This document shows positions 50,501 through 53,500 of a stretch of 64,000 bases of DNA, one piece after another. A program made the position numbers. The DNA lies in the NCBI RefSeq assembly GCF_013167455.1, contig NZ_CP038328.1; one strand, given 5' to 3'. Position 1 is the first letter of the stretch; the number at the start of each line of letters is the position of its first letter. The DNA is from Escherichia coli O157:H7 (GTDB lineage: Bacteria; Pseudomonadota; Gammaproteobacteria; Enterobacterales; Enterobacteriaceae).

Positions 50501-53500
50501 CGAGAGGATCAGACGTGAGTGACCACCGCGACCAAAAGTCCCATCAATGTAGATGCCATCAGGACGGATATTGAGGCCATTAACGGCTTCATCCAGCAGC
50601 ACCGTAGTATGTTTATAGTTTTCCATCATTTTATAGAGACAAGTCCTGCAGTCGCTCCGATAAGTCTCCGGTAGCCAACTGCTCTGCGTCGATATCTTCC
50701 TTGACCTGTTGATGCCAGGTTGTTTCATCCCACAGCTCAAACTTGTTGAACTGTCCAACCAGCATCACTTCTTTTGTCAGCCCGGCATGTTGCCGCAGTA
50801 CTGGCGCGATTAACAATCGACCTGCGCCATCCATCTGACATTCGCTGGCATGACCTAACAGTAGGCGCTGCACACGGCGCTCAACCGGGTTCATGCTCGA
50901 CAGACGCGATAATTTTTGCTCGATAATTTCCCATTCAGGCAGGGGGTAAAGCAGCAGGCACGGGTGATGAATGTCAATGGTGCAAACCATTTGACCGGCA
51001 GCGTTCTCAAGCAGCTGTTCCCGATAACGGGTAGGCACTGATAAGCGCCCTTTGCTGTCGAGATTGACTAACGTTGCTCCCCGGAACATGCCAGCCTCAC
51101 CCCTTATTCCCACTTTGCCCCACAATTTCCCACTGAAAGGAGTTTACGGAGCGGAGGAAAAGCTTGTCAAGCCAGTCACAAGGCATACCGAGGTAAAAAA
51201 CCCGATGTTTACGGCTAATATCAGCGTTGTTTATTTTACGTCCAACGTGCGAAGCAAATTAACGTTATGAATAGCTGTAAGAAAAAAACCCTCATCGTCA
51301 TCACCGTTTTAAAATGACTCACTATTTTCCACAGCAAATATAAAGTGTCAGTTTGCGACGCGAGCGGCATTTTAGGACATATCTTCCCCGGTTAACAGTC
51401 CCTGTTGCGTCTGTGTAGCGCTTGATGCCAGCGGGTTTGCGCAAAAGCAAAGAAAAGTGCTTGTTAAATCGGCAATTCATCTCTGCATGTAACAAAATAA
51501 TGCAAAAACGCGCTGTCGATATCACTTAATTATTGTGAATTTCAGCTGGTGAGTTAATTAACTGGCGGGTTTAAAAGCATTTATCAATAATAGTCAGGAA
51601 TAGTCTTATTTACTTTAAGGATATTGATGTCCAGTCCCGTACTCTACGCGCCAGAGTGAAATTCACCTGGCGCGTATTTTTGTTCGCAGCTTAGCTACGG
51701 CTGAGCACACCGCGGCGATAGAGATTACGTTTAATGCGCGTTAAACCAGGTTTTGGCTTACGCGGTTCGTCCAGGCTTGCCAGGACAATCTCCAGCACAC
51801 GCTCTGCGACATCGCGGTGACGTTGAGCCACTGCCAGCACCGGGCACTGTAAGAAGTCGAGCAGTTCGTTATCGCCAAAGGTGGCAATTGCCAGGTCAGA
51901 AGGCAGTTTACCATCGCGACGTAGCGTGACATCCATCACCCCTTGCAACAACGCAAACGACGTTGTGAACAGCGCCTGCGGCATCGGATGCGTTTCCAGC
52001 CATTTTTCGAATAACTGGGCAGCCGCCTCCCGCTCATAGCTGTTGGCATACAGGAAATGCACTTCGCGCGGATCATCTTTCCAGGCAGTACGGAAACCTT
52101 GTTCACGCAGGAAGCTGACAGAAAGCTCCGGCAGCGCGCCAAGATAAAGCACCGTCTCGGCGGGAAACTTACGTAACTCTTCCGCCAGCATTTCGGCATC
52201 ATCCTGATCGGCACCAACCACGCTGGTAAAGTGTTCACGATCGAGGGCGCGGTCCAGCGCGACAATCGGGAACGGGTCGTTAGCCCAGCGTTGATAAAAA
52301 GGATGCTCAGGAGGCAACGACGTCGAAACAATAATGGCATCGACCTGACGCTGTAAAAGGTGCTCAATGCAGCGCATTTCGTTGTCTGGCTGATCTTCTG
52401 AGCAGGCAATCAGCAGTTGATAACCCCGTTGCCGCGCCTGGCGTTCAAGATAGTTAGCGATGCGGGTATAGCTGGTGTTCTCCAGATCGGGGATCACAAG
52501 ACCAATAGAACGTGTGCGTCCAGCACGAAGCCCAGCTGCCACGGCGTTCGGGTGGTAATTGTGCTCACGCACCACAGCCATGACTTTTTCAACGGTTTTG
52601 TCACTCACACGGTATTGCTTCGCTTTGCCGTTAATAACATAGCTTGCAGTGGTCCGCGACACTCCCGCCAGCCGAGCGATTTCATCCAGTTTCACAATTG
52701 CCCCTTGCGTAAAATGTAAAAACCATAGCCATTGTACTGGTATGGGTTAAATTCATTAACATCTAAGCGCAGAAAATTAACTGCGGCAACTGCTTTTATT
52801 CCAGGTTCCCACTGATTTCGCAAAAAAAGCCCAACGTGACATGTTGGGCTGTAAATTGCGCATTGAGATCATTCTCAACGCATTATTTTATCGCCGCGCG
52901 AAAGTCCGACCACACCAGAGCGAGCAACTTCCACAATTTTCGCCACATCGCGAATCGATGCTAAAAATGCATCAAGCTTATCGCTGGTGCCTGCTAATTG
53001 AACGGTATAAAGCGAGGGTGTGACATCAATAATTTGCCCACGGAATATTTCCGTATTACGTTTAACTTCGTCACGCCCGTAACCGCTGGCCTGAATTTTC
53101 ACCAGCATGATTTCCCTCTCAACATGCGCGCCCTGCCCCAACTCACTCACGCGCAAGACATCGACCAGCTTGTATAATTGCTTTTCGATCTGCTCAAGCA
53201 CTTTTTCATCGCCCACGGTCTGGATGGTCATACGCGATAATGTCGGATCGTCGGTTGGCGCAACGGTCAGGCTTTCAATGTTGTAGCCACGCTGGGAAAA
53301 AAGGCCAATCACGCGGGATAACGCGCCTGATTCATTTTCGAGTAAGACTGATAATATCCGGCGCATAATCAGGTTCTCTCCGTTTTGCTTAACCACATTT
53401 CATCCATTCCGCCCCCGCGAATCTGCATCGGGTAGACGTGCTCACTGCCATCGACGGTGACATCAACAAATACCAGGCGATTATTACGCACCTGTTCAAG

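What the first reader, a model, noticed from the sequence alone, without database searches (positions are those of the whole stretch)
51647..51682. Canonical intrinsic terminator oriented on the + strand just beyond the cra stop, opposite to both flanking genes
The hairpin cgcgccag-N12-ctggcgcg is followed by TATTTTTGTT on the + strand. On the minus strand (the cra mRNA sense) it lacks a U-tract and is only preceded by an A-tract. It is therefore best placed to terminate a + strand transcript arising in the 600-bp cra-mraZ spacer (antisense to the mra leader), or it acts bidirectionally. No + strand gene is annotated here.
Basis: seen in the sequence. Interest (0 to 1): 0.3.

Follow-up and report, generated by a model that had tools for sequence, protein, structure and literature searches.

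The report
Stem-loop at the cra mRNA end
The hairpin just after the E. coli cra gene is real, and published mapping puts the end of the cra mRNA at its foot, so it is mainly an ordinary mRNA-end hairpin; its T-run on the opposite strand may also stop a weak antisense transcript.

Summary
The window is E. coli O157:H7, reverse-complemented relative to K-12. A 10-bp GC-rich stem lies at 51645-51676, 15 nt beyond the cra stop, and TTTTTGTT follows it on the + strand only. It folds at about -23 kcal/mol and is far above chance.

K-12 SMRT-Cappable-seq places the cra mRNA 3' end at 89082 (window 51641), 4 nt past the stem. A GC hairpin follows cra in most of the ~70 Enterobacteriaceae species that could be scored. 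The T-run is on the cra-sense side in 17 loci, on the antisense side only in Escherichia (plus one Enterobacter call), and on neither side in 42. Two independent variants keep a U·G pair in cra-sense RNA but give a C·A mismatch in + strand RNA.

The best fit is a U-less 3'-end stem-loop of the kind described for Rho-dependent transcripts. Rho dependence was not tested.

The + strand reading is not empty. EDL933 Cappable-seq lists a weak TSS at window 51598, found in 1 of 8 conditions. It lies 18 bp from a K-12 opposite-strand TSS, the usual geometry of a bidirectional promoter. It would give an RNA of about 86 nt. No + strand 3' end is documented.

This is an ordinary feature of low novelty.

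The parts
51645..51676 (.). GC-rich stem-loop: TACGCGCCAG, a 12-nt loop, CTGGCGCGTA (K-12 89047-89078). O157 has an extra inner 4-bp helix; the loop sequence varies among E. coli lineages.
   Evidence: Two stem pairs show compensatory changes across Escherichia.
51677..51684 (+). T-run TTTTTGTT directly after the stem on the + strand, which is the A-run AACAAAAA before the stem in cra sense. Four T's (51678-51681, columns 40-43 of alignment A1) are invariant in the 8 distinct Escherichia sequences.
51641..51641 (-). Mapped 3' end of cra transcripts (K-12 NC_000913.3 89082, forward strand), 4 nt after the stem.
   Evidence: Yan et al. 2018, PMC6131387, Supplementary Data 1. Coordinate map.
51691..52695 (-). 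cra (fruR) coding sequence. The stop codon lies 14 nt from the base of the 10-bp stem.
51598..51598 (+). Weak + strand TSS (EDL933 93731 minus strand, class 'd-asTSS' of cra), detected only in exponential LB.
   Evidence: PMC10469882, Table S6. Position checked.
51586..51592 (.). Near-symmetric -10 element: AATAAT on + (51586-51591) and TATTAT on - (51592-51587). It serves the + strand TSS at 51598 and the - strand TSS at 51580 (K-12 89143), which are 18 bp apart.
51598..51684 (+). Predicted short transcript of about 86 nt running from the weak TSS to the T-run. This is inferred; the RNA has not been observed.
   Evidence: Inference plus the fold. No RNA family match.

Best explanation
The stem-loop is first of all the 3'-end structure of the cra mRNA. 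Transcription of cra (window - strand) runs past the stop codon, and the RNA ends a few nucleotides after the hairpin. No U-run follows the stem in this sense, so the most likely route is diffuse termination a short way downstream, followed by 3'-to-5' exonuclease trimming back to the hairpin, which then protects the mRNA. That termination is probably Rho-dependent. Some polymerases read on into mraZ.

In the genus Escherichia the hairpin happens to be preceded by an A-run. The same DNA read on the + strand is therefore a textbook hairpin-plus-U-run terminator. It should stop the weak divergent transcript that starts 47 nt away at a symmetric -10 element (window 51598), along with any other + strand transcription, before it runs antisense into cra.

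Shown here: the hairpin; the strand asymmetry of the T-run; the cra 3' end at the hairpin; the + strand TSS; and that most Enterobacteriaceae have a hairpin at this position.

Inferred: Rho dependence and trimming; actual termination of + strand RNA; any benefit from it.
For: 1. In K-12, cra transcripts start at 87968 and end at 89082, 4 nt after the stem. Of 94 reads from that TSS, 20 end at the site, 24 end within 50 bp downstream and 6 read through. Such scattered ends fit diffuse termination plus trimming.

2. Dar & Sorek 2018 describe exactly this class: precise 3' ends just downstream of stable stem-loops that lack a U-run and protect Rho-dependent transcripts from PNPase and RNase II.

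3. A GC hairpin lies within about 5-60 nt after the cra stop in most of the ~70 loci that could be scored, although the sequences cannot be aligned between genera. The T-run is on the cra-sense side in 17 loci, on the antisense side only in 6 (5 Escherichia and one Enterobacter) and on neither side in 42.

4. In Escherichia, two stem pairs show compensatory changes. The variant at pair 13-32 is U·G in cra-sense RNA but C·A in + strand RNA, and it occurs in both E. albertii and E. coli MLI108K3. Cra-sense folding energies there are -19.4 and -15.6 kcal/mol, against -11.0 and -9.7 for the + strand.

5. There is a + strand TSS at window 51598. It lies 18 bp from the K-12 opposite-strand TSS at 89143, the usual spacing of bidirectional promoters.

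6. Four T's of the run are invariant across the 8 distinct Escherichia sequences, while the flank on the cra side varies.
Against: Rho dependence was not tested. The C>G bias downstream in cra sense is modest: the C/G ratio is 1.9 in window 51620-51541.

Adams et al. 2021 Term-seq lists no 3' end on either strand here, so neither the cra end nor a + strand end is confirmed by that dataset.

The cra end rests on one row in one condition of one long-read dataset.

The + strand TSS was seen in 1 of 8 conditions, and minus-strand TSSs in that dataset occur about once per 600 bp locally. One within 100 nt is therefore expected roughly 15% of the time by chance.

The two TSSs of the proposed bidirectional promoter come from different strains, with about 1 nt of uncertainty between datasets.

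The wobble asymmetry rests on two variants, and the shuffle controls on 8 sequences are not decisive.
Confidence: 0.6

Rival explanations
1. The element is a dedicated + strand intrinsic terminator. Its purpose is to end an unannotated short RNA (about 86 nt, 51598-51684) made from the cra-mraZ spacer, and the cra mRNA end at the hairpin is a by-product.
For: The canonical hairpin plus U-run exists on the + strand only. There is a + strand TSS 47 nt upstream. The size and shape resemble a small RNA: an open AU-rich 5' part followed by a terminator hairpin. The T-run core is conserved across Escherichia.
Against: The TSS is weak, seen in 1 of 8 conditions, and lacks a recognisable -35; the promoter scan finds nothing on the + strand in the spacer. 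No RNA family matches and no feature is annotated there in K-12 or O157. No + strand 3' end is listed. Variants in E. albertii and one E. coli lineage weaken the + strand fold but not the cra-sense fold. Most other genera keep a hairpin at this position without an antisense T-run. In O157 the 10-codon ORF inside the RNA has a ribosome-binding-site-like AAGGA, but this motif is lost in K-12 and the ORF is not conserved in E. albertii.
Confidence: 0.12
2. The hairpin terminates cra transcription directly as a non-canonical intrinsic terminator: a hairpin without a U-run, perhaps helped by NusA or NusG or by collisions with converging polymerases. No Rho or trimming is involved.
For: The cra 3' end lies 4 nt from the stem. 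The hairpin is very stable. GAGTAC right after the stem is invariant in Escherichia.
Against: Only 1-2 U occur in the 9 nt after the stem. About as many reads end scattered within 50 bp downstream as end at the site itself, which is not the precise stop expected of intrinsic termination. The described class of U-less terminal stem-loops is linked to Rho.
Confidence: 0.2
3. The inverted repeat acts at the DNA level, as a palindromic protein-binding site or a repeated extragenic element, and not as an RNA structure.
For: It is a perfect 8-10 bp palindrome with a spacer. It lies in a regulatory spacer that also holds a widely conserved motif.
Against: It is single-copy per genome. The arms change by compensatory and wobble substitutions while the loop drifts freely, which is the pattern of an RNA helix. 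Other genera have different hairpin sequences at the same position. An RNA 3' end maps to its foot.
Confidence: 0.03

Closest known systems
Terminal stem-loops of Rho-dependent transcripts (Dar & Sorek 2018, Nucleic Acids Res 46:6797; PMC6061677)
   Same: It is a stable stem-loop just after the coding region with no U-run in the mRNA sense. The steady-state 3' end lies a few nt after the stem, and further 3' ends are scattered downstream.
   Different: Rho dependence, exonuclease trimming and a rut site were not shown for cra. Here the hairpin additionally carries an A-run upstream.
Canonical intrinsic (Rho-independent) terminator
   Same: On the + strand it has a GC-rich 10-bp stem followed at once by UUUUUGUU.
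   Different: No annotated or well-expressed + strand transcription unit ends there, and no + strand 3' end has been mapped. The loop is 12 nt in most E. coli, longer than is usual. On the cra strand the U-run is missing.
Bidirectional terminators between convergent units (Ju, Li & Liu 2019, Nat Microbiol; recalled from memory, not held in the library)
   Same: One hairpin serves RNAs coming from both directions: cra from one side and a weak antisense transcript from the other.
   Different: Those elements carry an A-run and a U-run, so both strands read as canonical terminators, and they sit between convergent genes. Here only one strand has the U-run and the flanking genes are co-directional.
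Bidirectional promoters from -10 symmetry (Warman et al. 2021, as summarised in PMC10268837)
   Same: The source of the + strand RNA fits this class: divergent TSSs 18 bp apart over a shared TATTAT/AATAAT element.
   Different: The two TSSs were mapped in different strains (K-12 and EDL933). Both are weak.

Membership tests
Intrinsic terminator, + strand | Stable GC-rich stem-loop | tested here: met
   -23 kcal/mol with z = -6.5; -20.3 kcal/mol in K-12.
Intrinsic terminator, + strand | U-rich run directly 3' of the stem | tested here: met
   TTTTTGTT follows the stem; 7 of the 9 bases after the 8-bp GC core are T.
Intrinsic terminator, + strand | RNA 3' ends in the U-run, at the end of a transcription unit on that strand | tested here: inconclusive
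   There is a weak TSS 47 nt upstream, but no + strand 3' end is listed in the Term-seq supplement searched and no + strand gene is annotated.
Intrinsic terminator, cra (-) strand | U-rich run directly 3' of the stem | tested here: not met
   The tail is UAGAGUACGG, with 1-2 U in 9 nt.
Protective terminal stem-loop of Rho-dependent transcripts | Stable stem-loop after the gene that is not followed by a U-run | tested here: met
   class definition.
Protective terminal stem-loop of Rho-dependent transcripts | Steady-state mRNA 3' end immediately downstream of the stem | tested here: met
   The K-12 transcript end at 89082 is 4 nt after the stem at 89047-89078.
Protective terminal stem-loop of Rho-dependent transcripts | Read-through when Rho is inhibited; 3' end altered in PNPase or RNase II mutants | not testable with these tools
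   This needs bicyclomycin and exonuclease-mutant data.
Protective terminal stem-loop of Rho-dependent transcripts | C-rich, G-poor rut region just downstream | tested here: inconclusive
   The C/G ratio is 1.9 in window 51620-51541 (cra sense) but about 1.0 in the windows that include the hairpin (51700-51581).
Bidirectional terminator | A-run 5' and U-run 3' of one hairpin, so both strands read as canonical terminators | tested here: not met
   The run is present on one side only in Escherichia. Both sides carry a run in some other genera, for example L050, L065 and L080.
Repeated extragenic palindrome or mobile repeat | Many copies per genome | tested here: not met
   Median 1 place per genome in 4090-5423 E. 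coli genomes.
Bidirectional promoter (source of the + strand RNA) | Divergent TSSs 7-25 bp apart (most often 18) over a near-symmetric -10 element | tested here: met
   K-12 89143 (+) and the K-12 equivalent 89125 (-) are 18 bp apart over TATTAT/AATAAT. The two TSSs come from different strains.

The most novel reading that the evidence does not exclude
The ~86-nt + strand RNA (window 51598-51684) is a real, Escherichia-specific cis-antisense small RNA. It would be made from the leftward arm of a bidirectional promoter and ended by this terminator. By pairing with cra read-through transcripts, or by polymerase collision at the shared hairpin, it would set how much cra transcription continues into the mraZ cell-division operon.
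Probability: 0.06. Interest if true: 0.45.

Novelty: new member of a known kind. Interest (0 to 1): 0.15.

Why it matters
There is little at stake. The result adds one unannotated but already-mapped transcript end to the E. coli map. It also illustrates a general caution: scoring terminators by hairpin plus U-run can assign a hairpin to the wrong strand, because U-less hairpins still mark mRNA ends.

The one mildly interesting point is evolutionary. Most Enterobacteriaceae keep a hairpin after cra, but the side carrying the T-run differs by lineage. In Escherichia it faces a weak divergent promoter, so the same hairpin may shield cra from antisense transcription. Some cra transcripts do read through into mraZ, so anything that tunes this hairpin could link carbon-flux regulation to the cell-division operon. 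That link is speculative.

Tried and rejected
- **Rfam.** A permissive search of 50900-52000 gave no match.
- **Built-in scan.** The promoter and terminator scan did not list the hairpin because of its loop limit, and it found no + strand promoter in the spacer.
- **Term-seq supplements.** Adams 2021 lists no 3' end at 89.04-89.08 kb on either strand. The TERMITe supplement holds no coordinates for this site. Choe 2022 and the Rend-seq annotation paper have no supplements held.
- **K-12 Cappable-seq.** Only the + strand half of the TSS file is held, so the K-12 minus-strand TSS could not be checked.
- **Papers not reachable.** Guessed PMC ids for Thomason 2015 and Ju 2019 were not held. Searches for cra-mraZ or fruR-mraZ found nothing, and the single paper holding cra, mraZ, antisense and terminator was irrelevant.
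- **10-codon ORF rejected.** The ORF at 51627-51659 (+) has an AAGGA ribosome-binding-site-like motif in O157. The motif is AAGCA in K-12, and E. albertii has non-synonymous changes and no shared stop codon.
- **First classifier discarded.** The first hairpin classifier, based on the minimum-free-energy fold, absorbed A and T runs into stems and was replaced.
- **Repeat or mobile element rejected.** The element is single-copy.

Full report
**Identity and coordinates.** The spacer and the cra 3' end are 100% identical to E. coli O157:H7 genomes. The window is the reverse complement of the K-12 orientation. cra occupies 51691-52695 and mraZ 50631-51089, both on the - strand. An indel-free alignment of the spacer gives K-12 coordinate = 140723 - window coordinate. 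The cra stop gives EDL933 coordinate = 145329 - window coordinate. Neither K-12 nor O157 RefSeq annotates anything in the 601-bp spacer.

**The observation.** The sequence shows CGCGCCAG (51647-51654), a 12-nt loop, CTGGCGCG (51667-51674) and then TATTTTTGTT. Flanking T-A and A-T pairs extend the stem to 10 bp (51645-51676).
- In O157 an inner GUGA/UCAC helix closes the loop. K-12 and other lineages carry G or A at that position, so the inner helix is specific to O157.
- The + strand RNA folds at -23.0 kcal/mol (z = -6.5). The cra-sense RNA folds about as well.
- In cra sense the stem is preceded by AACAAAAATA and followed by GAGTACGG, so a U-run exists on the + strand only.
- A scan of the whole window for perfect stems of at least 8 bp found 10 hairpins, 5 with a T-run on one side. 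Dinucleotide shuffles gave 3.2 and 0.07.
- The element is single-copy per genome and matches no RNA family.

**Where the cra mRNA ends.** Supplementary Data 1 of Yan et al. 2018 (SMRT-Cappable-seq, PMC6131387) contains the row 'NC_000913.3 87968 89082 forward 94 20 6 24 119 novelTTS b0080'. By the file's column legend:
- 94 full-length reads start at the cra promoter.
- 20 reads end at 89082.
- 24 reads end within 50 bp downstream.
- 6 reads extend further.

K-12 89082 is window 51641, 4 nt after the 10-bp stem (K-12 89047-89078). The same dataset lists a cra-only unit, an ilvIH-fruL-cra unit and a cra-mraZ-rsmH-ftsL read-through unit. The caveats are that it is one row from one condition, and that Adams et al. 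2021 Term-seq lists no 3' end on either strand between 83641 and 89783.

**Comparison across Enterobacteriaceae.** Eighty species loci carrying cra were fetched. In most, a GC-rich hairpin lies within about 5-60 nt of the cra stop, yet the hairpins cannot be aligned between genera. About 70 loci could be scored by counting T in the 9 nt after the GC core on each strand:
- 17 loci have a cra-sense T-run. These are canonical terminators in Kosakonia, Phytobacter, Franconibacter, Atlantibacter and Cedecea, and some also carry an A-run.
- 6 loci have only the antisense T-run: the five Escherichia sequences and one Enterobacter call.
- 42 loci have neither, including Klebsiella, Raoultella, Citrobacter, Salmonella and Kluyvera.

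A hairpin after cra is therefore a stable property of the gene's 3' end, while the side carrying the T-run is lineage-specific. U-less hairpins are the commonest state.

**Which strand's RNA is under selection.** Eight distinct sequences were compared: E. coli alleles sampled across the identity range, plus E. albertii, E. whittamii and an unnamed Escherichia species.
- Two stem pairs change on both sides: C-G to U-A, and U-A to G-C.
- The change at pair 13-32 occurs in both E. albertii and E. coli MLI108K3. It gives U·G in cra-sense RNA but C·A in + strand RNA.
- In those two sequences, cra-sense folding energies stay at -19.4 and -15.6 kcal/mol, while the + strand falls to -11.0 and -9.7.
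- Cells forming a standard pair are 95.0% in cra sense and 91.3% on the + strand.

This favours the cra-sense fold, but it rests on two variants and the shuffle controls are not decisive. On the other side of the argument, four T's of the run are invariant while the flank toward cra varies. That is suggestive of constraint on the run but not significant. The GAGTAC directly after the stem in cra sense, where the 3' end maps, is also invariant.

**Mechanism on the cra strand.** Dar & Sorek 2018 report that Rho-dependent E. coli transcripts have precise steady-state 3' ends just downstream of stable stem-loops lacking a U-run. These stem-loops protect against PNPase and RNase II, and rut sites lie just beyond them. 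The cra end fits the structural and positional criteria. The scatter of read ends within 50 bp downstream suits diffuse termination plus trimming. The C>G bias downstream is modest, with a C/G ratio of 1.9 in 51620-51541. Rho dependence is inferred, not shown.

**Is there a + strand transcript?** The consensus scan finds no + strand promoter in the spacer. However, Table S6 of the EDL933 Cappable-seq study (PMC10469882) lists a 'd-asTSS' of cra at 93731 on the minus strand, detected only in exponential LB.
- That position is window 51598 on the + strand, 47 nt before the stem, with AATAAT at -12 to -7.
- K-12 Cappable-seq lists an opposite-strand TSS at 89143, which is window 51580.
- The two TSSs are 18 bp apart over TATTAT/AATAAT, the commonest geometry of bidirectional promoters.
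- The + strand RNA would be about 86 nt, with an open AU-rich 5' part and the terminator hairpin.

The support is weak. The TSS was seen in 1 of 8 conditions. Minus-strand TSSs in that dataset occur about every 600 bp locally, so one within 100 nt is expected about 15% of the time. The two TSSs come from different strains. No + strand 3' end is documented. Short RNAs were probably not captured by the long-read dataset.

**Conclusion.** The hairpin is best read as the cra mRNA 3'-end stem-loop of the U-less type. In Escherichia it also reads as a canonical terminator on the opposite strand and should stop weak divergent or antisense transcription before it enters cra. The feature is ordinary: an unannotated member of known classes, parts of which already sit in published supplementary tables.

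Noticed in passing
window 51598-51640 (about 50-95 nt after the cra stop); loci L003-L082: A motif TTA(A/G)GAT(A/T)ATTCC, often preceded about 20 nt upstream by a second ATAATTCC-like copy, lies 65-81 nt after the cra stop in most of the 44 of 81 sequences that match it. It is kept across genera whose cra hairpins are unrelated, and in some Citrobacter it is a perfect palindrome, AAGAATATTCTT. It looks like a binding site for an unknown factor upstream of the mra operon, and it overlaps the weak + strand TSS.
   Followed up: partly
L091 (E. coli 1585m1) 748-1445; equivalent to about window 51620: An IS1 element is inserted in the cra-mraZ spacer, between the weak + strand TSS and the hairpin. 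This natural variant separates the two.
   Followed up: no
window 51088-51270 (+): The EDL933 annotation used in PMC10469882 carries a hypothetical minus-strand gene, number 29355 at 94059-94241. That is a + strand ORF in the window, antisense to the mraZ promoter and start codon. It is absent from the current annotations of another O157 strain and of K-12, so it is probably spurious.
   Followed up: no
window 51627-51659 (+): A 10-codon ORF (MSSPVLYAPE) with an AAGGA ribosome-binding-site-like motif 5 nt upstream ends inside the hairpin loop in O157. The motif is AAGCA in K-12 and the ORF is not conserved in E. albertii.
   Followed up: yes
window 51580, 51486, 51363, 51133 (-): K-12 Cappable-seq lists three minor mraZ-sense TSSs upstream of the main mraZ promoter (89143, 89237, 89360, then 89590). 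Long reads show cra transcripts continuing into mraZ-rsmH-ftsL, so the 601-bp spacer is transcriptionally busier than the annotation suggests.
   Followed up: partly
L005 and L006 (E. whittamii and Escherichia sp. E1V33), first 55 nt after the cra stop: An outer perfect 6-bp helix, ATTACG/CGTAAT, brackets the A-run and the hairpin in these two species. It would sequester the A-run (U-run on the other strand) in a longer structure.
   Followed up: no
window 6174-6201, 6682-6711, 13226-13245, 57118-57147, 61914-61936: These are other strong hairpins with T-runs found by the same scan. 13226-13245 has runs on both sides and so looks bidirectional. 57118-57147 carries an A6/T6 pair within its stem. 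None was examined.
   Followed up: no
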